DNA from: a plasmid
Strand: one strand, 5' to 3'
Sequence record: NZ_CP118109.1
Length of the DNA: 64,000 nucleotides
Part shown: positions 45,580 through 60,709 of the stretch, piece by piece
How positions within the stretch are numbered: the first letter of the stretch is position 1
How the letters are laid out: each line of letters opens with the position of its first letter
Made by a program: the position numbers and the translations under genes
The notes under the pieces: model-generated
What the model saw: only the letters and a program-made list of their open reading frames with translations
Told to the model about the DNA's origin: nothing
Databases searched by the model: none

Positions 45580-46023
45580 TCAATAAATCTCTATAATGAT
45601 GTGCGCGTATTTTCCAGCATACGTTTTCAGGATCGATTCAATATCGTGGTTGCCGATAGTAAAGTTTTCAACTGAATACCCTTCGATCGTATATTCCGAA
45701 TACCCATACCATTCCGTATAGATATCAAGCTCACCGATCGACATCATAATCTGTTTTTCTTCTGCTTCTTCGAGTGAGACTTCTTTGTCACTCAGATGAA
45801 ATCGAAGGAAAACGTTGGGTAGAGAAACGGACATATCCGTATGGTAATCATTTGTTTGGTGTTTGGATTCGTCGTTTCCGGATATCTGAGAAGCAATCGC
45901 TCGGCCGATACTTTCATAAGTGCCATCAAATTTCATCCCGTCTTCGTGATTGTTTAAATATCCTCGCAGGTGTATTCGCTTCTGAATTGTATCTTTCTGG
46001 TATCGGCTCATCAACTCGGTCAT
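45580..46023 (-). CDS. hypothetical protein with MELM-family N-terminus (MTELMSRYQ)
   Basis: 147 aa. AGGGGA RBS. Confidence 0.5.
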   Translation of the reverse strand: MTELMSRYQKDTIQKRIHLRGYLNNHEDGMKFDGTYESIGRAIASQISGNDESKHQTNDYHTDMSVSLPNVFLRFHLSDKEVSLEEAEEKQIMMSIGELDIYTEWYGYSEYTIEGYSVENFTIGNHDIESILKTYAGKYAHIIIEIY

Positions 46024-47141: not shown

Positions 47142-47155
47142 TGTAACGCATTACA
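47142..47155 (-). promoter_or_regulatory. dyad TGTAACGCATTACA overlapping the stop codon of the 1723-aa gene, upstream of gene 46020..47078
   Basis: Core palindrome about 64 nt upstream of the start codon at 47078. A hairpin plus U-run (47095-47126) lies between the palindrome and the RBS. Confidence 0.4.
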
Positions 47156-50100
47156 ATTCTATAAATTCCACTCCATCTATTTCCGTAAATTTCGGGAACA
47201 TCTTAACATAGTCTACAAGAATGCCACCTTTAGCCTCCTTGCTGTTCACCTGAATAATAATGGAATCAACATTGCCGTCATTCATAATGTCAGCCGTATA
47301 GATCATCCAATCTTCGCTGTTGATTGTGGCCATCGGCACTTCTGCCGTTTCTCCGTTTCGATATGCATACCGAATGACAGCTGCTGAACGATCCTCCGCC
47401 TTAGACATCTTCTTCGCTTTGATATCCAAAGTGTAGTCGCTGTATTCCAGATTGGCTGTGGAGAGCAGGATGCCGTATACGCCTCCCTCTGCAATTTGAA
47501 GGATAGAGTTATCGCCAGTACCGAGATCTTGCTGATTAATGAAGTATAATCCGCTTGATAGATTCGCATTATATTCATTCAGGTGCTTGCCGTAAAGGAA
47601 CTCCGGATTGCCAAGCACGTTAAGATCGGTTGGTTGCGGATCGTAATACTCAATGATCGGCAGGATTCCGTATCCTTTATGCTTCGCTACAGCTGCTTGC
47701 ACTTCAGCTTCACTAAATCCGTTTGGATTATTTGGAGTGGCTAGGATACTGCGTGGGAGCCGAACAATAATGACTCCATTTTCCTGATATGCTTCTCCAT
47801 CAAAGTATCCGATATCCCAATGGTAAAGTGATTCTTTATTTACCTTGGCAATGACCGCTTTAGATAATGCTTCATCCAGACCGCCGCCTCTTGTCCGGGT
47901 GTCCATAATGACCACATCTTTCTTAAGGCTGGAGTTGGCTTGGACTGTTACCTTCCCTAGTCGAAGCATGGATGGGTCATAGTTATAATCATCTGGCTCA
48001 AACCAGTAGCCGTCATCCGTATGGAAGATCGCTTGATTACGAGTTGTACCACTAATGAGCTGAGGTCCTGATTCCTCTTGTATCCAGATGGATGTGGGTC
48101 TTAGATAGACGTGCATTTGTCTAACTAATAACTCATTGCTTTGCTTCTCGGTCGTTGTGTACGATTCGCGCAGCGTCACATCTCCTGGAACCCATTCATG
48201 GAATCCATCTTGTGCCATCGTAAATCGGTGTCCTGGACTTGGGTTTAAATCCAGATGGAAGAACTCTCCGCTTCGATTGTATCCGCGGTACGTGTACCAA
48301 TCTTCTACATAAGCATATCTCACAATCACTTCGTCCTGATCTCGAATCCTATCGTGAAGATAAATGATACCTTTTTTCGCATCGATGTCGGAAACTCTTA
48401 GCTTACGAGACTGATTCATTCGGATCGCTTCGACTTCGAGATAGCTTACGCCAGCTTCGGATGCCATCGCAATTGGCGTGAATCCAACTTGAATCGCTTT
48501 ATCATTAAGAATAACAGGATGCTCTCGATCAATCAGAATGACCGGCTCATTGTAGAACTCTTGGTTCGTATATTCCGGTACCGTATAATCCATGATGATT
48601 TCTTTTCGTTCTTCCGGATTCATCGGAGCGTAGGGAATCAGTTCTGGATAGTATACATAGAGCTGCGGCACTTTTTCACCAGCCTCATAATAAGGAAGGA
48701 CGTATCGCTTCTTCACTCTGCCGTTCTTCACCCGTACATACCAGTTGTCGATCTCCGTGTTATCTCGCTCAACCTTTGGCTTCTCCATTTCGATCTTTTT
48801 ATCATCATCAATCTTGATGGCCAGCACCGGTACTGACTCCAGCTCTTCGAAAGTTGTCCACGCTACAAGGTCAGCTGTAAGCCCTTCGATCACATTTTTT
48901 GTTCCCGGCTGCAGGATGTTTTTCATACGCATCCGGTTAACGCCTCGGTTTGCCTGATCCACCTCGAAGTATTCTCGGTTCTGCCAGTTGTAATGCCAGC
49001 GATAGTTCACTCGGTTCTCCCGATTGTTGCCTGCTGCATCCCCTCGCTCGATACGCAGAAGCAATTCATTTGCAGGAACGCTGGATGGAATGTTTAATTT
49101 CTCGAGGATGTTTCCTGTCCCGAAAAGAAGGCCCATTGATTTCATGCCTTCCTGCTTATAAATCTTATCTGTCCCTTCGAGTGGCAAGGTGAGTGGTGCT
49201 CCAATCGCAATGATCGGCGGCACATCAACCTCAGCAGAAACAGAGTTGTCACCGTTAATTCGAATACTTACGCCTTCACCGCTTGTTGCCCATATTCGAT
49301 TCCAAGAGAAGTTCTGAATCTCAATCGGTATATTATCCTTTGTTAGCATTGGCGGGGTGAGTGTTACATTCATGACGCCGTCAGCCCTCATGACCGCCTT
49401 ACCTGTGCCGGTAATATTCTTACGATTATCACTGGTTAGCCAAGGGGTGCTTAATGTCCCTCCTGCCTGGCTGCTGTTCGTAACTGCCCAAATGTAGCCA
49501 TCGTTTCGAACCTCAGCCCGAAGGTCTACCGGATCACCGACAACACTTGGAGTCGTAACAGTATAAGGCATACCATCACCATAGGTGTCTTTCATATATT
49601 GCTCAATGAGTGGTGTTAAGATATCGGCCGGCTTCTTGTCGGACACCTTAACCCAATCGTTACTAGTCAGCGTCACGTTCTCCCAATCTGTACAGAGTTC
49701 GTGAACATCCAGCTCTGTGAATTTCAACTTAGACCATAGTGCATTCTCTTGAGAGATATTACAGATTCCATAAGAGCCTTTACTATAGGTGCTGTCTTCA
49801 GCTTCACATACCAATGTTCCTAATGCATCATCGGAAGTATCGTTACCGATGTAGACCTGAAACTTACTACCGGCAACCACGACGCGAATCTTATATGTCT
49901 CCCCCGGCACCCATCCCTTTGCATTGTAGTTTACGTTGCTCGTAATGTTCTCAAAGGATGTTTCTGTTCGATCTGATTTGTACTGGCAGTTTGGATGTAA
50001 AGCATCAGAGTAAGGCGGCAATGTTGTTGGACTGGCTTTGAATATCCCCTTCTTGCGGTTTTTAAATCCGTAGTCTGACATGTACTTTGTCATATTCGTT

Positions 50101-52322
50101 TCAGCTTCATAAGCGCTGTTAAATTTATTAGGGTCTGGATTCTTGTAATAGAGTACCGCTGACACCCCTCGCTCACCAACGAGTACACGACCTACACCGT
50201 TTCCGTTGGCTCCCGGCTCACGCATGAGCTGGTCTTTTTCCCAAAGGAAGCAGTAATATTCTTTATCGTTGTTAACTCGGAACTGAATCCCAATGACATC
50301 ATCATCGTTGTGATCGTTAACCGTAACGCATGCAGAGAAGATGTAGTTGTCTTTATCTTTGTGAGCACCATTATAATATCCGCTGACTTCAATCTTATTT
50401 ACAGTTAAAAGAAGCACGTCCCTAGCTCGGTTGTATTCCCATTTGCCACGAGTCTCATTGGAGCCAATAAAGTCCCATCCTGTAAATACATCAATAGGCT
50501 TTGCTGCAAACGCCTTCTCAATCGTTACGTTTTGACATACTTTCCATCGTCCTTCGTAGCTCTGTGAAGTAATGATCTCACCTGATCCACTGGCTTCCCA
50601 CGTGAAGTCTACTTCTGACTTCTGCTGCTCAGGATAGATCGTAACCTGATGTTCGATCGGATTGTTCTTCAGTTTGACGTTGCTTCCGCTGACTCCCGTC
50701 CACTTAGCGGTTGTCGTATTTGATTTTGCCTGTGCCGGTGAACTGCCGCTTTCTGCTACAATGCTTTCTACTAGTCCATTATCCGAAGCGGCTTGAGTTG
50801 TATAGAGCAGGTTCCCGCTGGCATCTTCAATCCTGAATACGGCATCCATCGGAAGTGAAGGCATGTCTACTGGCATAATCGATTGAATGAGGCTCCGTGC
50901 GTCTACATATCCGCCGCCAATATTTACGCCCAAGGTTTTATACTCTCCGGTAAACTCAAGCTTCTCATGGGCGAGGAGTGCATCTGCATTCATTGTCCAA
51001 TCGCTTACGTATCCAAAGGTTAATGTGCGTTGGTTGTTCTTGTCATCCAAATAGGTAGCAGATAATTTATAGTTGAATGCGTTACGCGCTCTTGGGTCAT
51101 TCATGGAACGTTGCGGTACCGTAATTTTATATCCATCCTTATCTGGATATTCCTCAATCGAATACACCTCTTGAATGTCCTCGGCTGCCCGCAGGTCTTC
51201 TGCTGTCACCTGCTCGTATGCACCGATCCCATTGATTACTCGGAGCTTGCCGCCCTCAATCAATCCAATATTCCCTTGATTAGAATAAAGCTCCACCGTT
51301 TTTGTGGTGCTCTTAAGTTCTGCATCTGGAGCAGGAGTTTCTACATGATTGTAGCGAACCTTAAAGGTCTGCTCTTCATCCGTATTGCTTTGAATATAAA
51401 TCTTCACCCAATAGATCTTAGGATTCTGCTCAGTCGTTTGAGCATAGATAAGACGCTTGAACTCAGGTCCTAGCAGGTTCCCATTTTCATCGGTTAGCTG
51501 AATTTGGCTGCCTGTGTAACGTATTACCTTCCCTGCTTCTCCTGGATCACTATCGTAATGATACTTCAGCTCAAACTTATAAAACAGCGCACTGGATATT
51601 GTAGTTTCGTTCTGCGTAAATCGTCTAGTGATGTTGATATTCTTGGATGGAAACCTGCTGTATGGCGGACGCATAATGATCGGCTGATCATCGGAAACCA
51701 CATCAGCATAGGAGAGGACGCCGTTTGCATCCGGAACAACTAAGGACTCAATCTGATCAATAGGGATTACATTTTCATTGACCGAAGAGGTGTCGATCAA
51801 TGAAACGTTCTCTTCTACGTTGATCCGCGGACTATGGATATAAGCCAGATTGACATCGCCAGCTGGTACCTGTTCACCCACTCTGAGTGAAAGCTTGCCG
51901 TTAGGCAGCGCCTTATTGAACTCAAATAATTCAAGCCCATAATCTAATCGCTGATCTTTATGATAATAAGCTACTGCTTTCATGGCTCCGTCAGCTGTTT
52001 GAACTTTCTGCTCTACTCCATCTTTATAGAAAACGACTGAAATATCTTTGTGACCTGATTTAGTCTGATAGCCGACAACCACGACTTTGTCGGATTGAAT
52101 CCCATATTCCTGAATGTAATCATCAATCTGCTTCTGGAATGTTTCCTGCATACTCATTCCATCGCAAAGCGTCTGTCCGATTTCAGCTTGATTCATGGTT
52201 TCGTTAATCGTGAAGTAATCATCATATACAAATACCTTATCAAGCTCGGTCTGATCCTTTACTGAGATAATACATGCGATGCGATAAAAGTCTTTAATCA
52301 CTTTTAATCTCCCTTCTTTCAC
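47151..52322 (-). CDS. giant tail fibre/structural protein (1723 aa)
   Basis: Long beta-rich ORF. The palindrome motif overlaps its stop codon. Confidence 0.6.
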   Translation of the reverse strand: MKEGRLKVIKDFYRIACIISVKDQTELDKVFVYDDYFTINETMNQAEIGQTLCDGMSMQETFQKQIDDYIQEYGIQSDKVVVVGYQTKSGHKDISVVFYKDGVEQKVQTADGAMKAVAYYHKDQRLDYGLELFEFNKALPNGKLSLRVGEQVPAGDVNLAYIHSPRINVEENVSLIDTSSVNENVIPIDQIESLVVPDANGVLSYADVVSDDQPIIMRPPYSRFPSKNINITRRFTQNETTISSALFYKFELKYHYDSDPGEAGKVIRYTGSQIQLTDENGNLLGPEFKRLIYAQTTEQNPKIYWVKIYIQSNTDEEQTFKVRYNHVETPAPDAELKSTTKTVELYSNQGNIGLIEGGKLRVINGIGAYEQVTAEDLRAAEDIQEVYSIEEYPDKDGYKITVPQRSMNDPRARNAFNYKLSATYLDDKNNQRTLTFGYVSDWTMNADALLAHEKLEFTGEYKTLGVNIGGGYVDARSLIQSIMPVDMPSLPMDAVFRIEDASGNLLYTTQAASDNGLVESIVAESGSSPAQAKSNTTTAKWTGVSGSNVKLKNNPIEHQVTIYPEQQKSEVDFTWEASGSGEIITSQSYEGRWKVCQNVTIEKAFAAKPIDVFTGWDFIGSNETRGKWEYNRARDVLLLTVNKIEVSGYYNGAHKDKDNYIFSACVTVNDHNDDDVIGIQFRVNNDKEYYCFLWEKDQLMREPGANGNGVGRVLVGERGVSAVLYYKNPDPNKFNSAYEAETNMTKYMSDYGFKNRKKGIFKASPTTLPPYSDALHPNCQYKSDRTETSFENITSNVNYNAKGWVPGETYKIRVVVAGSKFQVYIGNDTSDDALGTLVCEAEDSTYSKGSYGICNISQENALWSKLKFTELDVHELCTDWENVTLTSNDWVKVSDKKPADILTPLIEQYMKDTYGDGMPYTVTTPSVVGDPVDLRAEVRNDGYIWAVTNSSQAGGTLSTPWLTSDNRKNITGTGKAVMRADGVMNVTLTPPMLTKDNIPIEIQNFSWNRIWATSGEGVSIRINGDNSVSAEVDVPPIIAIGAPLTLPLEGTDKIYKQEGMKSMGLLFGTGNILEKLNIPSSVPANELLLRIERGDAAGNNRENRVNYRWHYNWQNREYFEVDQANRGVNRMRMKNILQPGTKNVIEGLTADLVAWTTFEELESVPVLAIKIDDDKKIEMEKPKVERDNTEIDNWYVRVKNGRVKKRYVLPYYEAGEKVPQLYVYYPELIPYAPMNPEERKEIIMDYTVPEYTNQEFYNEPVILIDREHPVILNDKAIQVGFTPIAMASEAGVSYLEVEAIRMNQSRKLRVSDIDAKKGIIYLHDRIRDQDEVIVRYAYVEDWYTYRGYNRSGEFFHLDLNPSPGHRFTMAQDGFHEWVPGDVTLRESYTTTEKQSNELLVRQMHVYLRPTSIWIQEESGPQLISGTTRNQAIFHTDDGYWFEPDDYNYDPSMLRLGKVTVQANSSLKKDVVIMDTRTRGGGLDEALSKAVIAKVNKESLYHWDIGYFDGEAYQENGVIIVRLPRSILATPNNPNGFSEAEVQAAVAKHKGYGILPIIEYYDPQPTDLNVLGNPEFLYGKHLNEYNANLSSGLYFINQQDLGTGDNSILQIAEGGVYGILLSTANLEYSDYTLDIKAKKMSKAEDRSAAVIRYAYRNGETAEVPMATINSEDWMIYTADIMNDGNVDSIIIQVNSKEAKGGILVDYVKMFPKFTEIDGVEFIEL

Positions 52323-52345: not shown

Positions 52346-55300
52346 TTATGCCCCTATTACCTTCAGGTAGATGAAGTTGCTTGCTGTTTCACCTTCCATA
52401 CTGTAAGAAGCTGTTACAGTAATATTGCCTTGCTGTTCATTCAAAGCGGATATTGTCCACTCTGCTTGGCCATACACATTTGTCGTCATTTCAGAAGTAG
52501 TGATATCACCTTTCGTATCACGACAAACAATCTTAATTCTCTCCCCCGCCACGTTCTCCCAGTTCTCATTTCGAAGCGTAATGTAGACGGTTGCCTTATC
52601 ATCCTGCCCCGCTTGAATCGCAGCCTTACTGGTTTTCACTTCAAGGAAGTAGCGATCCTTCATATTAGGAACATAGAAGTTTAGGAGTGTTTGGTTATTT
52701 AAGTCTTCGCAGATAATCTGATATGCGCTAATCATTTCAGCTCTAGGTACTGGCTTATCATAAACGTAAATTTCACCTGCACGGTTTGTTGGACCGCTGT
52801 AGATCAATTCTCCATCACGATATACATCCACGTTCTTGTTCTGAATAGGATTGTTGTATTTGTCCAGTACCTTCCCTGTCACAAGGACCTTTCCTAATCC
52901 ATCGGAAGATAATGTCTTTGGTGATACATTGATCTCTACAGATTTTGGTGTGTCCAATATCTTGTTGGTCAAGTAAAGGAAGCCCTTGTGATTATGAGTA
53001 AGCAGCGGATTCAGTGCGATTTCTTTTGCACGATAGAACGGACTAAACGCATCGCCTTCATAAATTATCTCCATATCCTTCATCTTGTCTGGATCATAGT
53101 TCGAATGAAGAACAATCTTAGCGACATCATTATTCGGATCGTGGTTATAGTCTACAAAATAGCTGTACATTAAGCTATATTCGAAGTTCATTATATCACG
53201 GTTTCCTATATTGTTCATGAACTGAATCGACGATCTCTCTGCATCAAATACATATTTGTCTGCTGAAATTGTAACGCCATTCAATTTAACAACAAGGCTG
53301 TCCGGGTCAATGCCTTTATAGGTGAGATAGTACTTACCATATCCGTTTCCAGTCAGCTCTTCTTTATAGGTTAATGTCTGCTGAATATCAATGAGCAAGC
53401 CATCCTCGTTAAAGACTTCTTCATAGAATGCCGTTTTGCGAAGGATATTCCCTTCATTATCCCTTATGATCATCGGAGCTCCCTGTTGTGGCCGAGGTTG
53501 AATGAGAAGCTGGTGATCAACCGGAGTCATTACATGGCGGGTCTTCTTCGCATATAGGTAGTGCTCTTTATCTTTGAAGTAGTAATAGCCATTATGAATC
53601 ATTGGACTCCATGGCATCGGAGTGGCTTCTTTTACTCTGGCATTTACCGCATAGCCTAATCGAGGTGTAAAGAAATCAGGCGAGATCATAGTTCGATCTG
53701 TTGCCGGGTGTGACCATTCCAGCTTCACACTGGCCGTGCCTTCATTTTCGAAATAGTTAGCGTTGAAGTCGTACCATTTGCCTCCTTGCAGATCAATGCT
53801 GCCCACATGAGTCATTGCAGATTGCAATACCCATTTATCAATGATGAGCTTCTTATCAATCCAGAGTCTGAATCCATCGTCTGAGGTGGAGTAGAAAGTA
53901 TAGGTACCCGATACCGGCGCATAGATGCTTCCTTTCCAGTTGATTGCAAATCCATCGTTTGGTGTCCCCTCATCGGTCGGCTGAATCGGATCAATGTAAG
54001 GCTCTGGCTGATCCGGACTGTAAACGTCCACTGATGTATCCGGTGGTAAGTGCCCTCGGTTTATTTCACGGTAATCAAGCCAAGCAGGTTGCTCAGGCGT
54101 GGATGCCGGACGCGTAATAACGGTAGCCGATACCTTAGCATCATCACTAGATGTAACGATACCTCCTGTTGTAAAGTGCGTCTTGTAATCACTCGTATCG
54201 TTCTTGATAAAGTATTGAAGCGACACATCACTGCGTGAGAATCCATGAGCACTTAGGAAGCTATTTAATTCGCTACTGAAGAACTCAATCATTCGCTGGT
54301 CGTTAACCACCATCTCTTCGGTTCGCAGACTGTCGGTCAGCGATTTTGTCTTCTCTGCACTCATCGGTTTCCGGATCGTTTCTTTTAGAATTTTCGAGGT
54401 GCTGAAATTCCAGAAATACGTATTAGGCTGTGATCTTGTTACTGGCCCCCATGCCCCTGCAATTAATGCATCCGGTGCGTTGTCCACAATATCAAATTTT
54501 AATACGTCATTGGTATAGACTTGGATCGACTGTCCGACGACTCTCACACGGATCTTGTTCGTTTGATTTCCTCCATAAGCCCAGGGTTCGGGAAGGTGAG
54601 CAAGCTTCACTTTGTTATAAGTGAGCTGTGCTGTTCCGTACTGAGATGGGTTTGTACAGATGTTTCGATATATAGCCATCCCTCTTACATCCATGCCATC
54701 TGCATCCCACTCAAACGAATAGAAGTTTTTAGTGGCAGGGCTGAAGCGGAAGATTGCACCATACATATCATTATCACCTGAATTGATCTCTTGCACCAAG
54801 AACTCGAAATCATAATCCGTCATGTCTACATGTTCGGGATTGTACCATCCAGAGCGGTAGCTTTGATTAGCAAGATTCGTTACTTTGTCATAACCAGCTT
54901 CGGGCGGGCCGTGCCAGTTTCCTACATCTGATCCAATGTTTTCATCGAACTTATTCCATACGCCAGTGAAGTTACTGGTGTCGATGACTTCGGATGAAGG
55001 ATAGCTGATCTCCATCTCGACATTCAGATTAAATTTAATCTGATCAGGAATCACGGCCATCATGCGGAAACCGGCAGGTTCCAGGCTTTCCGTGAATGGC
55101 GACTGCGTACCCCAGTTGAAGTTAATGAAAGGATCGATGCGGGACATCTTTACATTACCAAGGTAATTTTCTTTCTGCGGATCGAAGCGCTTGGCCACCC
55201 TGTAGGACTGCAAGTGAACCCAGTCTTTAGGCATGAGTAATTCTTTATCCACCGTAAGAATACGACCGCTGATGCTATATTTCGTTTCATCCAGCTTAGC

Positions 55301-58300
55301 CCCATTTAAGTATACTTCTGGAGATAGCTGCGGCTCATTGGATAAATCAAACGTATTATCAATCTCACCTACACCGTACCTGATTCGAATGACACCTGGC
55401 GTCACATAACTTCCTCTAATCTTAAATGTCTGACCATCAATGTAGTACCCGTTTGTCGTGCTTTCTGGAATCTCCACATCATTTTTTCTAACCGAAAGAA
55501 CCTTGTAAGGCGGTACATCATACATCGGGAAGTCTGTTTGCATTGGCAGCTCTTTGATCTTGATTCCGCCTGCAGAGTAATTCACCTCAATGACATCTTC
55601 ATTTACAATTGGTGCCGTTATAATGACATCCTTACGATCCATAGCGAAAGCCGTAATCGAAGTGCCGTTCACTTTGACCGAAACAGAATCGGGGTCTGGC
55701 ACATAGCTCAGACTAAGCACCTTACGCACCTCAGTGCCAATGTTGGTTGTCACCATATAAGTGGTCTGTGCATTGCCTTGGTTGAATACGCTGATGATCC
55801 ATGTTCCCTCAATCGGCAGCGTGAAGGTCATTACTTCTGCATGTCCGTTGTCTCCAGAGTGCGTATACTGTCTGCAGCTTAAGAAATCGGATGCAGTTGT
55901 TCCCGTAGCAGACCAAGTTCCGTTCATATATTTAACACCAAACTGTTCACCGTTCGGTGCAGTCACAAGCAGGTCAGGATATTTATTTCCTGTATCAATC
56001 ATGAAGTTGGATGCGATTTTAAGAATTGGCTTTCCTGCAGGAACATATACTGTCGCCACCTCGGACTCCGTAGCTCCTTGAATGGTTCCTCTCACCGGCG
56101 CACTGCCGGGAATGAACGTTTCGGTTGCAGGTAGTCCCGGTGTATTTACTGGAGCCACGGCTTCTTCAATGACAAACACCTGCTCTTTGATTTGAAAGCT
56201 GCCGCCGACAACAAACTTCTCAAGCACGTTCTCAATCTCTTGAGGGTAGCGATAGTACGTTCCCAGGAGCCCTGAAGAACTCCCCTCTGCTTGAGTTGGC
56301 CAGACAGAAACAAACGGATTGTTACTGATGACTTCAACGCCTTCAATAGAAACATTATCATCATAGTCTTCCTGATCATCTGGATTGATGGAGATCGGAT
56401 CGCTTATGGTTGTTGTCGTATTCAGATCTGCATGAAATCCTCTCTCATCTTCATGCCAGCTTGTGTACCAATCGGTATACCAAACGTAGGCATCTTTGAA
56501 ATCAGAGCTGAACGTAACCGTTTTTCCCCCGGCATCGATGTTGTAACTTACACGCTCGTCGCTGACCTCGATATACGGGCCTGTAATGTTGACCATATTC
56601 TCAGGGATGAACACTGTATTCGTTGGAACGCCGACCATGTTTGCTCGACCAGCTGAGTCTCCGAAGAATGGGCGCTTTCCATTAACCTTTCCATATCCAA
56701 TTTCTTTCCCTGTTGTATAAGGGATATATCTTGGATCTTCATCACACTTCACCACAACACGATCATTCTGCCGATCCGTCTTGATGATGGGCTTGCCAGT
56801 CAACTGGTTAATAGGCAGTCCGCTGTTGCGGGTTGTGATTCCCGGCTGGCTTTCCCAATACATCCAAGTGAATGTCTGCTTGCCGATAGGCTCCTTGTAC
56901 AGAAGATAATGAACGTTGTCATAGATGCCTGGCATCGGCGTGTTTAGATACGGCTCGATGTAATGTTCATGGTTTGGCGGGATATCAACAAAGCTATCTT
57001 CTTCACTATTAACGATTCCTTCATTCAGGATATCGGCAGGAAATATGCCCTTGTACCACTCTGTTGTTTTGAGCATGAGTACATCGGACGGATCGTGATG
57101 AATGTCTACTGCTCCGCTATTCTGCCATTTCCAAGCGTCATACTGCTCGTTTACGGTTCCTGAGTTATCGTGGAAGGTTAATGTGTAGGTTGCCCAGTTG
57201 CCGCCCACAAAGTCCGTCAGAGGCCGTCCTGCGACCCATCCTTCATAAGCAAATACATTATGCTCATAATCAATCTCGGTCGTTACAATCTCGGGCTCAG
57301 TCTCCCACATCAATAGTCGCTCTTGCGTGAAGTCCTTCTCCGCATCATCAGCAGCTGGCTTCACTAGTGTAAAGGTTGGCACGACACTGCTTGCAGACAT
57401 TTCTGGATGATCACTCTTGAATTTAGCTAGCTCTGCTTTAAAGAACTCCTGAGCATTCGTATAGACTTCGGCAGCCGTATTCAAATCAATATTGTCGGGT
57501 GTAATTCGAATCTGGCCACTCTTCGTAAACTTCTGCGTGATTGGCTCTCCTGCATTAGGTGGATTGTTAGACTTCACCACGATGGCTCCCGTGACAGATG
57601 CTGTAATACTGCCGGCAGAGCTATCCGTTAATTCGCCAGCTACTTCTGTGACTTCATATTTCTGTGATGGCGAGCTGAGCTTGGATACGACTTGATTCTT
57701 CACGTATTCTCTACCAGAAGAAGAAATCGTTTTACTTCCGATACCCGTATATTTATCATAGCCGGTTTCCGGAATACGCCCCTCGATCTGATTCCACTCA
57801 CGTACACGGATACCATGAAACTGAACAGCCTGAGAGATATTGCACATCCCAAAGCTTCCTTCTTCCCAATCAGTATTGAACTCGAAGATTTTCGCATAGT
57901 CACCGCTTAAACTGTGGCGGATATGAAGCTCTACTTTCTTGCCCATGGAGCGAACCATCATACTTTGCATGACATTGAAATCCCATCCATTGCCGCCACC
58001 TAGATCATTTACATTAACCCTACTCATTACTCCATCGGTTACTTTATAGATGCGTCTATGCTGTGTCTTCCACCCCATGCTCTGTGTATACAGCCGCCAT
58101 TCCGATTCGGTCTGATAGCTGGCTCCTCTTACGGATCGCGCGTTCCATTGTTCTGGTGTCCCAGTGTAGATATTGAACCCTTCCAAGTTGTCACCTGTAC
58201 GGTTTGAGTTTCTTGCACGCTCATGGCTTTCAATCAGCAGCATGTAGAAGTTCCGTTTATCTCTTGCTTTGAAGATTAGTCCGATAAGGTCATCGTCTGC

Positions 58301-60709
58301 AATACCTGATGAGTCGCCCGCAATTGGCTTGTAATCAAACTCAGCTTCGTAACTGGTATAGTCATAGTATTTCTTTGCCACAACGCCACTGAACCGGCTG
58401 AGGTTGTATGTGTCATAGACGTATCCGCTGCCGAGTCGCCAAGACAGCTCGGTACCGCTACCGATGAAGTCTCCTTTGTCTCCTCCAGAAACGAACAATC
58501 CTTTTACGTCACCTTCATCATTCACTTCCACATTCGCTTTCCAGTTGACGGCGTACTCCAAATCCTTTTTCGTGACTTGTCCTTCCACGGACATTTCAAC
58601 TTCATAGTCCTTGATTGTTTCAAGCTTGCGGTCTTCTTTGATCGTGAACTCAAACTTCTTCGCTGGATAGGCATCAACACTCACCTTAAACGAAGACTCG
58701 TTATAGGTCACATAGAGATCGCCTTTATACTGAACGCTGTATTGGAATGCGATTTCTGGATAGATCATAATGGAATGGCGCTTCTTTCCGCGAAGACGTG
58801 CTGCATATTGGAATGGTTGGATGCTGTTTTCTAGCTGAGGCTTTTTCACCAACAGGTCGTCTTGATCTCCGATCCCTGAGTGGAAAGCATAATTTGGATC
58901 TTCTTCCCCACTTGTCCGAGTATACATACTCGTCAGCATTCCTGGGTTCTCAATATAGTTCGGTTCTTTTTCTACATCCGTCCATTGTTCTGGAGAATCT
59001 TCTGTCGGAATATAAATCGATCCATCTACAGCCTCGGTACTGAACGCCTGAATCCGGTTCTCGGATACATCGACATAAATCTGTTGCTTCAGCTCCCCTG
59101 CTTTGCAGATGATTGTGGCTTTGCCATTCGTGATAGCTTCAAACACAAGTCTGTTTGCATCTTCGTCTACGATATTAAGGCAACTGTTTTGCTGAATGTC
59201 CCATGTAATCGACCGGCTGCGACCATCATCATTTACGATAGCGGGATAGATCGACTTTCGCTCTCCTGGTGCCATGAGTATATTAGTTTCGGCAAAGTGC
59301 AGGATCGGTTGCGTCTGCCCTACGATATGGATCGTGGCTTCAGCTTCGTTATCATAAACACTTGCTTTTAGTCGGACGACTCCCGAGCCATAACCACCAA
59401 GTACGATATCTTTTCCCTTGTTGTTCTCCAATTGAACAAATTCAGCGCCTTCTACAATGTTCCACTCAATTAAGTAGTCATTGTGATCCATGCCAGCCAG
59501 TGTATTTTGATATTGGGCAGAAAGAGATATCTTGTCCCCTTGCACGATCGTTGCCTCTTCAGGCTGAACATGGAAGCGATACAAATGTTTATCTCGTATC
59601 GGCAGCTTTATGGTTGCCTCCACCACTTCGCTTGTCTTGCTAACAAGACGAACTTCCATCGTTAAAATACCTGAAGTACTAGGGATGATCATAAAAGTTC
59701 TCGTATCTAATTGGAGACTTACTTCACCGCCTTGCACATCATACTCACAGGTGGAAGTCTCGAAGATATCTCCATTCGTATACTCTGGCATCAAGTGGAT
59801 TTGAAAAGGCTGACCTACATAAAAGTTTTTACTATCCAAGGAAGTATGGATCACTGCTTTTGGCTTCTCTACACGGATCGGTGTTTCAGCGATGAATGTT
59901 CCTGCATAGTTAAAACGAATGTTGGTTTCACCAATACTCATGCCTTCAATCCAAATCTTATCTGATTCAACAGCAGAAACTCTTGCGATATTTCGGTTAT
60001 CAATGATGCCCTCAATAAGATCTGCCCTAACACCTAGAACACCTTCAACATCAAGAAAAATCGGAACAGGAATAGCCTCCCGATGAGTTACAACGATCTC
60101 ATTTACATTCACGCTTCCTATGACATTCTCAATCAGAGAAACATCAAAACCAAAGACTTCAATACCTTCCTCAGCAAGTTCCATAATTACATTCTCTTTA
60201 TTGCTGATAATTTCAAGGGATCGAATATCATAGCGAAGAGGGAACTCTATTTCACTATTGCGCTCAAGCAGCTGCTTAAGCTCAGTGCGGTTTAAAATCT
60301 TTGCTGTCTCTTTGGTGCCGTGGATGCTTGTGTCGATCTGCTCTGCTGTTATCCATTTTGTTTCGGTTGTTATCGGTACAGCTGCTCTGGATTCGATCCA
60401 AGCATAAACGGAATCAATGCCATCCTCATTTATTACGATTGATACATTAGGGTCTAGTGAGATCGCCGTATATCCTTGGATGACACTTCCCTCTTCGAGG
60501 TCAATAACTACGCTATCTAATTCGATATGAGCTTTGCTATCATAGCTTGTGTGCTGTTCATTAAGCACTCCGCGCCCCTCATATAACTTATCGTTATACC
60601 TCTCTCCATTTGGCTTCTCTACGTCAGCATAGACGGCGAATTGAAATGGGTGCTCCCACGTTGGGATAATCTCTGCTTTGATTTTATAATCGAAATTGAT
60701 TATGGCCAT
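52346..60709 (-). CDS. giant virion protein (2787 aa) with PA14 domain and N-terminal Ig-like repeats; candidate adhesin/receptor-binding fibre
   Basis: PA14 core GFAINWKGSIYAPVSGTYTFYSTSDDGFRLWIDKKLIIDKWV at about nt 53830-53990 (minus). AAGGAG RBS. Start codon overlaps stop of upstream gene (TAATG). Confidence 0.7.
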   Translation of the reverse strand: MAIINFDYKIKAEIIPTWEHPFQFAVYADVEKPNGERYNDKLYEGRGVLNEQHTSYDSKAHIELDSVVIDLEEGSVIQGYTAISLDPNVSIVINEDGIDSVYAWIESRAAVPITTETKWITAEQIDTSIHGTKETAKILNRTELKQLLERNSEIEFPLRYDIRSLEIISNKENVIMELAEEGIEVFGFDVSLIENVIGSVNVNEIVVTHREAIPVPIFLDVEGVLGVRADLIEGIIDNRNIARVSAVESDKIWIEGMSIGETNIRFNYAGTFIAETPIRVEKPKAVIHTSLDSKNFYVGQPFQIHLMPEYTNGDIFETSTCEYDVQGGEVSLQLDTRTFMIIPSTSGILTMEVRLVSKTSEVVEATIKLPIRDKHLYRFHVQPEEATIVQGDKISLSAQYQNTLAGMDHNDYLIEWNIVEGAEFVQLENNKGKDIVLGGYGSGVVRLKASVYDNEAEATIHIVGQTQPILHFAETNILMAPGERKSIYPAIVNDDGRSRSITWDIQQNSCLNIVDEDANRLVFEAITNGKATIICKAGELKQQIYVDVSENRIQAFSTEAVDGSIYIPTEDSPEQWTDVEKEPNYIENPGMLTSMYTRTSGEEDPNYAFHSGIGDQDDLLVKKPQLENSIQPFQYAARLRGKKRHSIMIYPEIAFQYSVQYKGDLYVTYNESSFKVSVDAYPAKKFEFTIKEDRKLETIKDYEVEMSVEGQVTKKDLEYAVNWKANVEVNDEGDVKGLFVSGGDKGDFIGSGTELSWRLGSGYVYDTYNLSRFSGVVAKKYYDYTSYEAEFDYKPIAGDSSGIADDDLIGLIFKARDKRNFYMLLIESHERARNSNRTGDNLEGFNIYTGTPEQWNARSVRGASYQTESEWRLYTQSMGWKTQHRRIYKVTDGVMSRVNVNDLGGGNGWDFNVMQSMMVRSMGKKVELHIRHSLSGDYAKIFEFNTDWEEGSFGMCNISQAVQFHGIRVREWNQIEGRIPETGYDKYTGIGSKTISSSGREYVKNQVVSKLSSPSQKYEVTEVAGELTDSSAGSITASVTGAIVVKSNNPPNAGEPITQKFTKSGQIRITPDNIDLNTAAEVYTNAQEFFKAELAKFKSDHPEMSASSVVPTFTLVKPAADDAEKDFTQERLLMWETEPEIVTTEIDYEHNVFAYEGWVAGRPLTDFVGGNWATYTLTFHDNSGTVNEQYDAWKWQNSGAVDIHHDPSDVLMLKTTEWYKGIFPADILNEGIVNSEEDSFVDIPPNHEHYIEPYLNTPMPGIYDNVHYLLYKEPIGKQTFTWMYWESQPGITTRNSGLPINQLTGKPIIKTDRQNDRVVVKCDEDPRYIPYTTGKEIGYGKVNGKRPFFGDSAGRANMVGVPTNTVFIPENMVNITGPYIEVSDERVSYNIDAGGKTVTFSSDFKDAYVWYTDWYTSWHEDERGFHADLNTTTTISDPISINPDDQEDYDDNVSIEGVEVISNNPFVSVWPTQAEGSSSGLLGTYYRYPQEIENVLEKFVVGGSFQIKEQVFVIEEAVAPVNTPGLPATETFIPGSAPVRGTIQGATESEVATVYVPAGKPILKIASNFMIDTGNKYPDLLVTAPNGEQFGVKYMNGTWSATGTTASDFLSCRQYTHSGDNGHAEVMTFTLPIEGTWIISVFNQGNAQTTYMVTTNIGTEVRKVLSLSYVPDPDSVSVKVNGTSITAFAMDRKDVIITAPIVNEDVIEVNYSAGGIKIKELPMQTDFPMYDVPPYKVLSVRKNDVEIPESTTNGYYIDGQTFKIRGSYVTPGVIRIRYGVGEIDNTFDLSNEPQLSPEVYLNGAKLDETKYSISGRILTVDKELLMPKDWVHLQSYRVAKRFDPQKENYLGNVKMSRIDPFINFNWGTQSPFTESLEPAGFRMMAVIPDQIKFNLNVEMEISYPSSEVIDTSNFTGVWNKFDENIGSDVGNWHGPPEAGYDKVTNLANQSYRSGWYNPEHVDMTDYDFEFLVQEINSGDNDMYGAIFRFSPATKNFYSFEWDADGMDVRGMAIYRNICTNPSQYGTAQLTYNKVKLAHLPEPWAYGGNQTNKIRVRVVGQSIQVYTNDVLKFDIVDNAPDALIAGAWGPVTRSQPNTYFWNFSTSKILKETIRKPMSAEKTKSLTDSLRTEEMVVNDQRMIEFFSSELNSFLSAHGFSRSDVSLQYFIKNDTSDYKTHFTTGGIVTSSDDAKVSATVITRPASTPEQPAWLDYREINRGHLPPDTSVDVYSPDQPEPYIDPIQPTDEGTPNDGFAINWKGSIYAPVSGTYTFYSTSDDGFRLWIDKKLIIDKWVLQSAMTHVGSIDLQGGKWYDFNANYFENEGTASVKLEWSHPATDRTMISPDFFTPRLGYAVNARVKEATPMPWSPMIHNGYYYFKDKEHYLYAKKTRHVMTPVDHQLLIQPRPQQGAPMIIRDNEGNILRKTAFYEEVFNEDGLLIDIQQTLTYKEELTGNGYGKYYLTYKGIDPDSLVVKLNGVTISADKYVFDAERSSIQFMNNIGNRDIMNFEYSLMYSYFVDYNHDPNNDVAKIVLHSNYDPDKMKDMEIIYEGDAFSPFYRAKEIALNPLLTHNHKGFLYLTNKILDTPKSVEINVSPKTLSSDGLGKVLVTGKVLDKYNNPIQNKNVDVYRDGELIYSGPTNRAGEIYVYDKPVPRAEMISAYQIICEDLNNQTLLNFYVPNMKDRYFLEVKTSKAAIQAGQDDKATVYITLRNENWENVAGERIKIVCRDTKGDITTSEMTTNVYGQAEWTISALNEQQGNITVTASYSMEGETASNFIYLKVIGA

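What the first reader, a model, noticed from the sequence alone, without database searches (positions are those of the whole stretch)
52346..60709. 2787-aa virion protein with PA14 domain and Ig-like repeats (adhesin-like receptor-binding fibre)
The window's largest ORF carries a textbook PA14 core (GSIYAPVSGTYTFYSTSDDGFRLWIDKKLIIDKW) at about nt 53830-53990 plus Big_2-like Ig repeats near the N-terminus. PA14 is a carbohydrate-binding module typical of bacterial adhesins and glycosidases. On a phage fibre it predicts glycan (teichoic acid or polysaccharide) recognition. The adjacent 1723-aa protein and this one together encode more than 13 kb of fibre.
Basis: partly seen in the sequence, partly recalled or inferred. 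Interest (0 to 1): 0.55.

Follow-up and report, generated by a model that had tools for sequence, protein, structure and literature searches.

The report
Giant phage adhesin with split PA14
This is a real 2787-residue tail/baseplate-region protein of a jumbo phage, built from sugar-binding-type and antibody-like modules and most likely used to grip the host cell wall; its PA14 sugar-binding domain is unusual because it is cut into three pieces by two large inserted blocks of other domains.

Summary
The ORF (52346-60709, minus strand, 2787 aa) is real and is the largest in the window.

By synteny and by its C-terminal ~400 aa, the gene is the counterpart of gp163 of Bacillus jumbo phage 0305phi8-36. 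gp163 was found in virions by mass spectrometry. It lies in the "hyperplastic" orf162-164 region, which was proposed in 2007 as that phage's host-recognition determinant.

The N-terminal 560 aa model as a string of Ig-like beta-sandwiches (pLDDT 71.5). The Big_2 label holds only for one domain of a 48%-identical homologue, not for this protein by profile search. Two ConA-like jelly rolls and C-terminal Big_1/invasin-like Ig domains are also present.

New here: Pfam matches only profile positions 35-140 of PA14. The missing N-terminal strands lie 375 and 770 residues upstream (aa 1480-1488 and 1849-1872). The domain is therefore split by two multi-domain insertions, an arrangement conserved in every relative that has the core.

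Glycan binding, virion location and fibre shape remain inferred. AlphaFold could not confirm that the three pieces assemble. Moderate interest.

The parts
52346..60709 (-). Whole ORF, 2787 aa; positional counterpart of 0305phi8-36 gp163 and Moorella phage MTATph1 CDS0050
   Evidence: PHROG phrog_21285 'virion structural protein', E 6.8e-29, over aa 2401-2629
60125..60709 (-). N-terminal beta-rich domain(s), aa 1-195; function unknown
   Evidence: AlphaFold model, pLDDT mostly 57-86, falling to about 50 after aa 170, all-beta plus one helix; no family hit
59042..60124 (-). Array of about four Ig-like beta-sandwich domains, aa 196-556. aa ~383-452 aligns with the Big_2 hit of homologue P0003. 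This is the most divergent part of the protein among close relatives.
   Evidence: The four units are not detectably similar to each other by HMM.
58430..58912 (-). Conserved scaffold block X, aa ~600-760 (SGIGDxDDL...FQYAARLRG); shared with Moorella CDS0050 aa 180-365 and with P0011, P0013, P0043 and P0105
57785..58432 (-). ConA-like jelly-roll domain 1, aa ~760-975 (DDDLIGLIFKARDKRNFY motif)
   Evidence: Weak reciprocal HMM similarity to ConA2. BLAST to the Moorella CDS0050 N-terminal domain, E 2e-5. TSP_C hints in homologues. All below curated cut-offs.
56300..57352 (-). Conserved scaffold block Y, aa ~1120-1470; homologous to Moorella CDS0050 aa 704-953
56240..56278 (-). PA14 piece 1 (strand beta1), aa 1478-1490, GLLGTYYRYPQ
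   Evidence: The PSSM for GLxGxYYN has its unique best hit at aa 1480, 15.5 bits (next best 7.3; 8 of 1000 shuffles reach it). Invariant in four homologues. It lies 10 aa after the end of the Moorella homology.
55175..56239 (-). Insertion A in the PA14 beta1-beta2 loop, aa 1491-1845. It holds a PPC-like beta-sandwich (aa ~1540-1660) and three small ~55-aa beta domains (aa 1662-1716, 1720-1782, 1785-1842).
   Evidence: PPC hint at E 0.067 only. sb1 is similar to the C-terminal small domain at aa 2455-2516 (E 9e-7 and 6e-4 reciprocally). The insertion is shorter in P0011 and P0013.
55085..55174 (-). PA14 piece 2 (strand beta2 and following loop), aa 1846-1875, KENYLGNVKMSRIDPFINFNWGTQSPFTES
   Evidence: The PSSM for xxRxDPxINFDWGxxxP has a unique hit at aa 1855-1871, 32.8 bits (next best 5.6; 0 of 1000 shuffles reach it, shuffle maximum 17.9). 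phmmer aligned aa 1846-1874 to the N-terminal strand of both PA14 copies of 6QDI.
53984..55084 (-). Insertion B in the PA14 beta2-beta3 loop, aa 1876-2242. It holds ConA-like jelly roll 2 (aa ~1905-2105), a helical element (aa 2128-2180) and a Pro-rich linker.
   Evidence: 3keto-disac_hyd hints: E 0.0098 here, 0.014 in the Moorella protein, 0.025 in P0003. Foldseek of the low-confidence model hits galectin, CBM66 and LNS jelly rolls. BLAST to the Moorella N-terminal domain, E 5e-14. P0003 and P0013 carry an extra ~230-270 aa domain here.
53660..53983 (-). PA14 piece 3 (core, strands beta3-beta10), aa 2243-2350, with D2277-D2278 (DcisD), Y2319 and E2321
   Evidence: Pfam PA14 at 73.9 bits, profile positions 35-140 only. 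6QDI and 6QE7. AlphaFold pLDDT 74-84 for this part. Foldseek to 6qdi/6qe7, rmsd 1.6 A over 99 columns for 6qe7_B.
52940..53647 (-). Conserved C-terminal block Z, aa 2355-2590; shared with gp163 (aa 1745-), Moorella CDS0050 (aa 959-) and other 0305phi8-36-like Bacillus phages
52349..52942 (-). Two C-terminal Big_1 / invasin-intimin-like Ig domains, aa 2590-2787
   Evidence: Big_1 at 29.6 bits (two stretches) and Invasin_D3 at 27.9 bits, both below cut-off here. Above cut-off in P0002 and P0003. An 'intimin domain' is described for gp163 (PMC2147016).
60709..62151 (-). Upstream partner gene, 480 aa; homologue of gp162 and Moorella CDS0049; stop codon overlaps the start of the giant ORF
   Evidence: phrog_21059, E 1.4e-96; BLAST; TAATG overlap
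47151..52322 (-). Downstream partner gene, 1723 aa; homologue of gp164 and Moorella CDS0051; carries its own ConA/TSP_C-like block

Best explanation
The ORF encodes the gp163-type giant host-recognition/adhesin protein of a 0305phi8-36-like jumbo myophage. The host is probably Paenibacillus, because the closest relative (94% identical) sits on a 206-kb contig of a Paenibacillus sp. TCA20 assembly.

**Shown**
- The protein is a mosaic of about 20 globular modules.
- These comprise an N-terminal array of Ig-like sandwiches, lineage-conserved scaffold blocks (X, Y, Z), two ConA-like jelly rolls, one PA14 lectin-type domain and C-terminal Big_1/intimin-like Ig domains.
- The PA14 is discontinuous. 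Strand beta1 is at aa 1480-1488, strand beta2 at aa 1849-1872 and strands beta3-10 at aa 2251-2350.
- A ~355-aa insertion (a PPC-like domain plus three small beta domains) sits in the beta1-beta2 loop.
- A ~370-aa insertion (a ConA-like domain plus a helical element) sits in the beta2-beta3 loop.

**Inferred**
- The protein is incorporated near the baseplate together with its gp162-like and gp164-like neighbours, through the blocks conserved across the lineage, especially the C-terminal ~430 aa.
- The lectin-type modules project outward. PA14 has an intact Asp-cis-Asp/Tyr Ca site.
- They bind cell-wall glycans multivalently and with low affinity per site, giving the first, reversible adsorption step.
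- The fast-evolving N-terminal Ig array and the swappable inserted cassettes tune host range.
For: **ORF and translational coupling**

**PA14**

**Split PA14**
- Pfam covers only profile positions 35-140 here. In all relatives the match likewise starts at profile position 27-40.
- PSSMs built from 10 contiguous PA14 domains find the two missing N-terminal motifs exactly once each, upstream and in the correct order. They score 32.8 and 15.5 bits, and 0/1000 and 8/1000 shuffles reach those scores.
- The three pieces, spliced together, align end to end with the contiguous PA14 of P0010: 37% identity over 146 columns, E 3e-27, 93% coverage.
- The spliced pieces also extend the Pfam match to profile positions 3-141, at 83.1 bits against 80.0.
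- Moorella CDS0050 joins its aa 953 and aa 959 to our aa 1470 and aa 2355. The whole block from piece 1 to the end of the core therefore behaves as one indel.
- All seven family members that have the core also have the upstream N-terminal pieces in order (both scored in six; piece 2 is interrupted by a small insert in P0013, where it was read by eye), with insertions of variable content. The three members without the core (P0043, Moorella CDS0050, gp163) lack both pieces.
- According to PMC6852018, strands 1 and 2 belong to the six-stranded sheet of the PA14 sandwich. A core lacking them would be incomplete.

**Virion and host-recognition role**
- gp163 is a virion protein by mass spectrometry.
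- The published inference is that orf162-164 is the hyperplastic host-recognition region.

**Other points**
- The Ig array is supported.
- The N-terminus is the most divergent part of the protein.
- The lectin-type Ca-site residues are conserved within the closest clade: D2277, D2278, Y2319, E2321 and N2322 are invariant in A1, read.
Against: - The AlphaFold model of aa 1470-2360 was poor (mean pLDDT 44.5, four sequences). It does not show the three pieces packing into one sandwich.
- The Pfam gain on splicing is only 3 bits.
- The beta1 motif is short, and its shuffle frequency (0.008) is modest.
- A string of four or five domains inserted in a loop must return to its starting point. That is sterically demanding, unless assembly is in trans between subunits.
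- Only 14% of the protein is homologous to the MS-verified gp163.
- No virion proteomics, adsorption data or host is known for this phage.
- The CBL2 ligand position holds Glu (E2321), not Asn or Gln.
- In relatives the DcisD motif is N-D (P0011, P0013) or lost (P0105). Sugar binding is therefore not a conserved property of the family's PA14.
- The ConA-like and PPC-like assignments rest on sub-threshold hits and a low-confidence model.
Confidence: 0.62

Rival explanations
1. The protein is a structural baseplate or tail-associated decoration. Its Ig-like, PA14 and ConA-like modules act as assembly and protein-protein interaction scaffolds, or as generic environmental 'stickiness', and do not form the specific receptor-binding protein. 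The true receptor-binding protein would be one of the neighbouring proteins: the 1723-aa gp164-like protein, or the VWA-, discoidin- or PKD-bearing proteins downstream.
For: [quoted passage not shown]
- Several neighbouring virion-module proteins also carry adhesion-type domains: VWA, F5/8 type C and PKD.
- The PA14 Ca-site residues are not conserved in more distant relatives.
- Some family members lack PA14 altogether: P0043, Moorella CDS0050 and gp163.
Against: - The region is the most recombinationally plastic part of the structural module. That is the usual signature of host-recognition genes.
- The closest clade keeps an intact DcisD/Tyr signature.
- The terminal Ig array evolves fastest.
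Confidence: 0.25
2. The PA14 is an N-terminally truncated, contiguous domain made of the core only. On this reading the upstream GLLGTYY and RIDPFINFNWG motifs are relics of a second, degraded PA14 copy, or chance matches, and do not contribute strands to the core.
For: - AlphaFold gave no confident assembly.
- Pfam scores rise by only 3 bits on splicing.
- Tandem PA14 copies are common in bacterial proteins, so a decayed tandem copy is conceivable.
Against: - The beta2 motif scores 32.8 bits, against a maximum of 17.9 in 1000 shuffles. It is almost invariant across relatives at 48-94% identity, which does not fit a decaying relic.
- What follows piece 2 is an independent ConA-like domain that stands alone in other family members, not PA14 core strands.
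- Nothing resembling beta1 or beta2 lies directly upstream of the core, where there is a Pro-rich linker.
- The pieces and the core are present or absent together across ten family members.
- The block boundaries coincide with the indel relative to the Moorella homologue.
Confidence: 0.2
3. The gene is cargo: a bacterial-type surface adhesin gene carried by the phage and expressed for the benefit of the host cell, and not a virion component.
For: - PA14, Big_1, ConA-like and PPC-like modules are typical of bacterial surface adhesins.
- 15,862 representative proteins match the block at E <= 0.001; nearly all of the best 150 listed do so through the PA14 core.
Against: - The N-terminus is not hydrophobic (MAIINFDYKIKAEII...) and so looks unlike a signal peptide, and there is no visible wall-anchor motif at the C-terminus (...IYLKVIGA). 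These were judged by eye, and no predictor was run.
- The gene is translationally coupled to a gp162-like virion gene.
- It sits at a conserved position inside the structural module in five independent genomes.
- Its C-terminus is homologous to an MS-verified virion protein.
Confidence: 0.04

Closest known systems
Bacillus phage 0305phi8-36 gp163 (YP_001429654.1; 'tail fiber protein' / virion structural protein, phrog_21285)
   Same: - Same position, between the gp162-like and gp164-like genes.
- Homologous C-terminal ~400 aa (25.7% identity, E 3e-28), including Big_1/intimin-like Ig domains.
- A ConA-like domain is also present: gp163 aa 72-252 matches our aa 1963-2159.
- Giant mosaic size (2143 aa).
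- Part of the 'hyperplastic' host-recognition region.
   Different: - gp163 has four FN3 domains and no PA14.
- It lacks the N-terminal Ig array, insertion A and most scaffold similarity.
- Only ~14% of our protein aligns to it.
Moorella phage MTATph1 CDS0050 (WPA89537.1, 'hypothetical protein', 1363 aa)
   Same: - Same gene order (CDS0049-0054).
- Shares a ConA-like domain, block X, block Y and the C-terminal block Z plus Ig domains, at 25-32% identity.
   Different: - It has a VWA domain instead.
- It lacks the whole aa 1470-2355 nested PA14 block and the N-terminal 600 aa.
PA14 dyads of clostridial anti-sigma-I factors RsgI4 (C. clariflavum, 6QDI, xylan-binding) and RsgI3 (C. thermocellum, 6QE7, pectin-binding)
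   Same: - Closest solved PA14s (E 3.5e-36 and 1.5e-31; ~40% identity over the core).
- The DcisD motif on beta5 and the stabilising Tyr are conserved.
- These domains show Ca-dependent polysaccharide binding (PMC6852018).
   Different: - They are contiguous tandem domains on a membrane sensor.
- Here there is a single domain, split at the beta1-beta2 loop (their CBL1a Ca loop) and at the beta2-beta3 loop.
- Our CBL2 sequence (ENEGT) matches neither the xylan signature nor the pectin signature.
Lectin-type PA14 of adhesins: Marinomonas primoryensis MpPA14 (6X7J and related entries), yeast Flo5/Epa1
   Same: - A PA14 used as a Ca-dependent sugar-binding head on a giant repetitive adhesin.
- DcisD signature.
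- Foldseek hits to MpPA14.
   Different: - These are cellular adhesins with a contiguous PA14.
- Sequence identity is only ~20%.
Ig-like domains displayed on phage structural proteins (Big_2, I-set, FN3; Fraser et al. 2006, recalled from general knowledge and not checked here)
   Same: - Tandem Ig-like sandwiches are appended to a virion protein.
- They evolve fast and are thought to give weak carbohydrate or cell-surface adherence.
   Different: Here they form a ~360-aa N-terminal array on a 2787-aa protein. They are not a single C-terminal add-on to a capsid or tail-tube protein.
GH3 beta-glucosidases with an inserted PA14 (for example Kluyveromyces marxianus BglI; recalled from general knowledge, not checked here)
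   Same: A nested domain architecture that involves PA14.
   Different: The topology is the opposite. There PA14 is the guest inside a catalytic domain. Here PA14 is the host of two multi-domain guests.

Membership tests
PA14 domain (Pfam PF07691) | Match to the family profile above the curated gathering score | tested here: met
   73.9 bits against a cut-off of 24, E 1.5e-20, aa 2243-2339. Only profile positions 35-140 are covered in the native sequence.
PA14 domain (Pfam PF07691) | Complete 10-stranded beta-sandwich including N-terminal strands beta1 and beta2 | tested here: inconclusive
   Sequence evidence places beta1 at aa 1480-1488 and beta2 at aa 1849-1872. The AlphaFold model of the block was too poor (pLDDT 44.5) to show them packed on the core.
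Lectin-type (Ca-dependent) PA14, as in RsgI, Flo5, Epa1 and MpPA14 | DcisD-N signature: two consecutive Asp on beta5, a stabilising Tyr and a polar Ca ligand in CBL2 | tested here: met
   In the alignment to 6QDI, D2277-D2278 align with D87-N88, Y2319 with Y129 and E2321 with N131, using the numbering of PMC6852018. Glu replaces Asn/Gln at the last position. The cis peptide itself cannot be seen from sequence.
Lectin-type (Ca-dependent) PA14, as in RsgI, Flo5, Epa1 and MpPA14 | Demonstrated Ca-dependent carbohydrate binding | not testable with these tools
   Needs recombinant protein, glycan or cell-wall binding with and without EDTA, and D2277A/D2278A mutants.
0305phi8-36 gp163 family (phrog_21285) of hyperplastic baseplate-region virion proteins | Sequence homology to gp163 | tested here: met
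   phrog_21285 at E 6.8e-29. tblastn/blastp at E 4e-23 and 3e-28 over aa 2379-2767. Homology is limited to the C-terminal block plus a ConA-like domain.
0305phi8-36 gp163 family (phrog_21285) of hyperplastic baseplate-region virion proteins | Conserved position between the gp162-like and gp164-like genes in the structural module | tested here: met
   BLAST of neighbouring ORFs against both annotated phages. The same order is seen in metagenomic relatives.
0305phi8-36 gp163 family (phrog_21285) of hyperplastic baseplate-region virion proteins | Presence in purified virions | not testable with these tools
   Shown for gp163 by mass spectrometry, according to the record annotation. No proteomics exist for this phage.
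Big_2 (Pfam PF02368) bacterial Ig-like domain | Match to the family profile above the gathering score | tested here: not met
   No hit in this protein, even at E <= 1. It is met only in homologue P0003 (28.6 bits against 22.8) at the domain aligned with our aa ~383-452. The fold-level Ig-like assignment is supported.
Big_1 (PF02369) / Invasin_D3 (PF09134) intimin-invasin Ig domains | Match to the family profile above the gathering score | tested here: inconclusive
   29.6 bits (cut-off 34.9) and 27.9 bits (cut-off 33) here. Above cut-off in the aligned region of P0002 (36.1 and 36.2) and P0003 (52.9).
Concanavalin A-like lectin/glucanase fold (3keto-disac_hyd PF06439, TSP_C PF05735, galectin/LamG-like) | Profile match or a confident fold match | tested here: inconclusive
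   Only sub-threshold Pfam hits: E 0.0098 here, and 0.014-0.033 or 3e-4 in homologues. Foldseek hits to galectin, CBM66 and LNS come from a low-confidence model. The independent hints are consistent with each other.
Phage tail fibre (trimeric fibrous receptor-binding protein) | Fibrous trimerising shaft (coiled coil, beta-helix or triple beta-spiral) and an N-terminal baseplate adaptor | not tested
   No tail-fibre family hit in Pfam, PHROGs or the PDB. Oligomeric state and shape were not addressed. The name 'tail fiber protein' on gp163 in RefSeq is an annotation, not a test.

The most novel reading that the evidence does not exclude
The PA14 domain is a genuinely discontinuous fold. Its first two strands are separated from each other and from the core by two multi-domain insertions of about 355 and 370 aa. 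One of these contains another lectin-type (ConA-like) jelly roll. The result would be a 'lectin-within-lectin' nested head of ~880 aa that behaves as a single evolutionary cassette, and the contents of its insertions are swapped between related jumbo phages. If the long inserted strings cannot fold back on themselves, the sandwich may be completed in trans between subunits, which would couple oligomerisation to formation of the sugar-binding site.
Probability: 0.7. Interest if true: 0.5.

Novelty: new variant of a known kind. Interest (0 to 1): 0.4.

Why it matters
**Annotation of the phage lineage**
- The gene gives a concrete, testable candidate for the host-adsorption protein of a poorly known jumbo-phage lineage (0305phi8-36-like) outside Bacillus.
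- It extends the 2007 idea that the gp162-164 region is the host-recognition hot spot.
- The same locus now appears in Paenibacillus-associated and metagenomic genomes with entirely different domain cassettes.

**Protein architecture**
- A PA14 sandwich that tolerates two ~360-aa multi-domain insertions in adjacent loops would be an extreme case of nested domains.
- It is also a warning for annotation pipelines. Pfam reports a truncated PA14 in every family member scanned that has one.

**Practical use**
- The lectin modules could be mined as cell-wall-glycan probes for Paenibacillus-like hosts.

**Limit**
- None of this changes current concepts of phage adsorption.

Tried and rejected
- **Nucleotide search.** Megablast of the gene against 50,697 phage records gave no match. 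Only protein-level relatives exist.
- **AlphaFold of the nested block.** The model of aa 1470-2360 with the only four available homologues had mean pLDDT 44.5.
- **Word-indexed search with the spliced PA14.** It collected only 14 candidates and gave one hit. That was too few for a deep alignment, although the one hit was informative.
- **Solved structures.** A profile of the four full-length homologues against the PDB returned nothing beyond PA14. There are no solved relatives for blocks X, Y or Z.
- **Internal repeats.** HMMs of the four N-terminal Ig-like units do not detect each other. They are not recent tandem duplicates.
- **Exact-sequence look-up.** The protein is not on record. The origin of the window remains inferred from the 94%-identical Paenibacillus sp. 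TCA20 protein.
- **NCBIfam.** The scan gave nothing meaningful.
- **Literature.** A search for a nested or split PA14 found nothing relevant. A search for PA14 on phage tail fibres found only a cryoconite phage cargo gene.
- **Rejected idea: curly fibre.** I considered whether the protein is the 'curly fibre' of 0305phi8-36-type phages. The published candidates are orfs 119-121 and 126-134, not gp163.
- **Rejected idea: P0005, P0006 and P0012 as relatives.** These are bacterial multi-PA14 surface proteins that share only the PA14 core.


Full report
**1. Observation**

The window has an uninterrupted ORF on the minus strand at 52346-60709. It has an ATG start, encodes 2787 aa and is the largest ORF of the window. 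A strong ribosome-binding site (AAGGAG) lies 8 nt upstream. The ATG overlaps the TAA of the preceding 480-aa ORF as TAATG, which indicates translational coupling.

Pfam confirms PA14 (PF07691, 73.9 bits against a cut-off of 24, E 1.5e-20, aa 2243-2339) and the related GLEYA family.

Because the gene is on the minus strand, the PA14 core lies in the C-terminal fifth of the protein. The best solved relatives are the PA14 dyads of clostridial anti-sigma-I factors, 6QDI and 6QE7 (E 3.5e-36 and 1.5e-31; profile search).

**2. Genomic context**

All large ORFs of the window are on the minus strand. The ORFs around the finding match PHROG families built on virion proteins of Bacillus thuringiensis jumbo phage 0305phi8-36.

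No nucleotide-level relative exists among 50,697 phage records. At protein level the gene matches Moorella phage MTATph1 CDS0050, 0305phi8-36 gp163 and related Bacillus jumbo phages.

BLAST of the neighbours shows strict collinearity:

| Window ORF | 0305phi8-36 | Moorella MTATph1 |
|---|---|---|
| 480 aa | gp162 | CDS0049 |
| 2787 aa | gp163 | CDS0050 |
| 1723 aa | gp164 | CDS0051 |
| 352 aa | – | CDS0052 |
| 823 aa | gp171 | CDS0053 |
| 637 aa | gp172 | CDS0054 |

gp163 and gp164 are annotated as identified in virions by mass spectrometry.

Hardies et al. 2007 (PMC2147016) described orfs 162-164 as a 'hyperplastic' region in which domains are substituted rather than diverged. [quoted passage not shown]

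The closest proteins in a 5.8-billion-sequence collection are few:
- P0001, 94% identical, from a 206-kb contig of a Paenibacillus sp. TCA20 assembly, named 'PA14 domain-containing protein'.
- P0002, 77% identical, from metagenome contigs (longest 213 kb).
- P0003, 48% identical over 78% of the query, 3056 aa, from a 208-kb metagenome contig.

The longest contig for each is about 206-213 kb, close to the 219-kb 0305phi8-36 genome. The same gene order is seen there. The window is therefore part of a 0305phi8-36-like jumbo phage, probably of a Paenibacillus host.

**3. Domain map**

- **N-terminus.**
  - Pfam finds no Big_2 in this protein, even at E <= 1.
  - P0003 has a Big_2 hit above cut-off at the domain that aligns with our aa ~383-452.
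  - An AlphaFold model of aa 1-560 reached mean pLDDT 71.5, with the units at aa ~375-550 at 76-92. It is all-beta.
  - Foldseek matches it to strings of Ig, cadherin and S-layer sandwiches (titin I65-I70, contactins, SbsB, EA1, a phage SU10 virion protein) at E 6e-16 to 1e-10. TM-scores are low, as expected for flexible arrays.
  - Ig-like repeats are thus supported at fold level.
- **Divergence along the protein.** The N-terminal 600 aa are the most divergent part among close relatives.

| Relative | Identity over aa 1-600 | Identity over the rest |
|---|---|---|
| P0001 | 77-93% | mostly 94-99% (88-92% in four windows) |
| P0002 | 40-67% | 71-90% |
| P0003 | 19-38% | 40-72% |

- **More distant relatives.** P0011, P0013, P0043, P0105, the Moorella protein and gp163 lack this N-terminal region entirely.
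- **C-terminus.** The C-terminal ~430 aa are the part conserved across the whole lineage. They end in two Big_1/Invasin_D3-like Ig domains. These are below cut-off here and above cut-off in P0002 and P0003.
- **ConA-like blocks.** Two blocks carry the DDDxxGxxF(K/R)xxDxxNFY signature, at aa ~760-975 and ~1905-2105.
  - They are weakly similar to each other.
  - They resemble the N-terminal domains of Moorella CDS0050 and gp163.
  - They give consistent sub-threshold hits to ConA-like families, 3keto-disac_hyd and TSP_C, in several homologues.
  - The low-confidence model of the second block matches galectin, CBM66 and LNS jelly rolls.
  - I treat them as probable ConA-like lectin-fold domains.

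**4. The PA14 domain is split**

In this protein and in every relative, Pfam covers only profile positions ~27-40 through 140. The first two strands are missing next to the core, which is preceded by a Pro-rich linker.

phmmer against the PDB aligned aa 1846-1874 (YLGNVKMSRIDPFINFNWGTQSP) with the N-terminal strand of both PA14 copies of 6QDI. I built position-specific matrices from 10 contiguous PA14 domains and scanned the whole protein:
- The beta2 motif (xxRxDPxINFDWGxxxP) has a single hit at aa 1855-1871, at 32.8 bits. The next best hit scores 5.6, the maximum of 1000 composition-preserving shuffles is 17.9, and none reaches the observed value.
- The beta1 motif (GLxGxYYN) has its best hit at aa 1480, at 15.5 bits. 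The next best scores 7.3, and 8 of 1000 shuffles reach it.

Further evidence points the same way:
- **Splicing.** aa 1478-1492, 1846-1875 and 2243-2352, spliced together, align end to end with the contiguous PA14 of P0010 (37% identity over 146 columns, E 3e-27, 93% coverage). Splicing also extends the Pfam match to positions 3-141, but the score rises only from 80.0 to 83.1 bits.
- **Indel boundaries.** Moorella CDS0050 joins its residues 953 and 959 to our residues 1470 and 2355. The block that begins 10 aa before beta1 and ends 5 aa after the core is therefore one indel.
- **Co-occurrence.** A full HMMER scan of 1.84 billion representatives found additional family members.
  - In ours, P0001-3, P0011 and P0105 the beta1 motif, the beta2 motif and the core occur together and in order. 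In P0013 beta2 is interrupted by a small insert, so its motif scores only 4.1 bits and was recognised by eye.
  - The intervening lengths vary. beta1 to beta2 is 170-381 aa, and beta2 to core is 189-650 aa.
  - P0043, Moorella CDS0050 and gp163 lack all three elements.
- **Structural need.** In the solved dyads, strands 1 and 2 belong to the six-stranded sheet of the sandwich (PMC6852018). The core cannot be complete without them.

The contents of the insertions are as follows:
- Insertion A sits in the beta1-beta2 loop, which is the CBL1a loop of RsgI PA14s. It holds a PPC-like sandwich (a hint only, E 0.067) and three small ~55-aa beta domains. One of these resembles a domain in the C-terminal block.
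- Insertion B sits in the beta2-beta3 loop. It holds the second ConA-like domain and a helical element.
- P0003 and P0013 add a further ~230-270-aa domain in insertion B. P0043 carries that same domain at a different site.

The one direct structural test failed. AlphaFold on aa 1470-2360 with four sequences gave mean pLDDT 44.5, and only the core reached 74-84. Foldseek still superposed that core on 6QE7 at 1.6 A over 99 columns. I rate the split-domain reading at about 0.7-0.75.

**5. Likely mechanism**

*Shown.* The protein has a mosaic of Ig-like and lectin-type modules, a position and C-terminal homology equivalent to gp163, and translational coupling to the gp162-like gene. Lectin-type PA14 residues are conserved: D2277-D2278 align with the Asp-cis-Asp/Asn pair, Y2319 with the stabilising Tyr, and E2321 with the Asn/Gln Ca ligand of CBL2.

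*Inferred.* The protein is mounted near the baseplate through the lineage-conserved blocks, most plausibly the C-terminal ~430 aa and blocks X and Y, together with its two neighbours. It exposes the accessory modules. PA14 and the ConA-like domains bind cell-wall glycans with Ca dependence and multivalency, giving initial reversible adsorption. The variable N-terminal Ig array and the exchangeable cassettes set host specificity.

The CBL2 loop (ENEGT) matches neither the xylan nor the pectin signature of the RsgI modules, so the ligand cannot be named. Relatives have N-D (P0011, P0013) or have lost the motif (P0105), so lectin activity may be clade-specific.

Nothing here shows a fibre in the strict sense, and no fibrous or trimerisation family was detected.

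**6. Comparison with what is known**

*Functional resemblance.* The protein resembles giant modular adhesins with a PA14 lectin head, such as MpIBP and Flo/Epa. It also resembles phage proteins decorated with Ig-like domains.

*Membership.*
- It is a member of the gp163 family by C-terminal homology and synteny.
- It is a PA14-domain protein by profile.
- It fails the Big_2 profile test in its own sequence.
- Big_1 and ConA-like membership are inconclusive.

*Rarity of PA14 in phages.* PA14 is rare in deposited phage genomes. Only 6 of 50,697 records match the core, including two 0305phi8-36-like Bacillus phages (Edson and vB_BceM_WH1 gp079 'virion structural protein') and a Tunturiibacter phage tail protein.

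*Prior reports of a split PA14.* I found no report of a PA14 that hosts nested domains in the searchable literature. This is absence within that library only.

**7. Verdict**

- An adhesin-like, host-recognition virion protein is the best reading, and it agrees with published inference for the homologous locus.
- Virion location, fibre shape, the Big_2 label and the ligand remain unproven.
- The added value is the discontinuous PA14 with two multi-domain insertions, which behaves as one mobile cassette within a hyperplastic locus.

Interest is moderate (0.4). This is a new domain-architecture variant inside a known kind of phage gene, not a new system.

Noticed in passing
window 35956-40938 (-), 33875-35941 (-), 31917-33866 (-): Three further large virion-module proteins downstream carry adhesion-type domains. 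The 1660-aa protein has VWA (E 3.5e-13), the 688-aa protein has an F5/8 type C discoidin domain (31.4 bits, above cut-off), and the 649-aa protein has PKD (28.8 bits, above cut-off). The particle seems to display many different binding modules, not only the PA14 protein.
   Followed up: partly
window 47151-52322 (-): The 1723-aa neighbour is the gp164/Moorella CDS0051 homologue. It contains its own ConA/TSP_C-like block (aa ~616-711), 36% identical to the N-terminal domain of Moorella CDS0050. The same lectin-fold cassette therefore occurs three times across the two giant genes. Its listed GTG start at 52322 may not be the true start, because an AAGGGAG-like site lies just downstream.
   Followed up: partly
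window 45237-45572 (-) and 45580-46023 (-): Two small ORFs lie between structural genes. The 111-aa ORF has a weak Endonuclease VII hit (E 0.007, below cut-off) and could be a homing-endonuclease remnant. The 147-aa ORF has a weak Tad6 (Thoeris inhibitor) hit (E 0.005, below cut-off) and matches phrog_20281.
   Followed up: no
P0003 aa ~2190-2460, P0013 aa ~1590-1850, P0043 aa ~1480-1700 (relatives, not in the window): An extra ~230-270-aa domain (motif ...LTFTPADCNA...IIFSHDTG...YYSE(T/A)GHS...) sits inside PA14 insertion B in P0003 and P0013. In P0043 it sits inside the C-terminal conserved block, and P0043 has the ConA2-plus-helix cassette without any PA14. These domains behave as mobile cassettes. 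The domain was not identified.
   Followed up: partly
window 58910-60709 (-), aa 1-600 of the giant protein: The N-terminal 600 aa diverge much faster than the rest among close relatives: 40-67% identity against 71-90% for P0002. More distant family members lack the region. This fits an exposed, host-range-related or immune-evasive tip. dN/dS was not computed.
   Followed up: partly
window 1-64000: Nearly every ORF of 150 aa or more is on the minus strand, and GC skew is negative throughout. This fits a single long transcriptional block of a phage genome.
   Followed up: no
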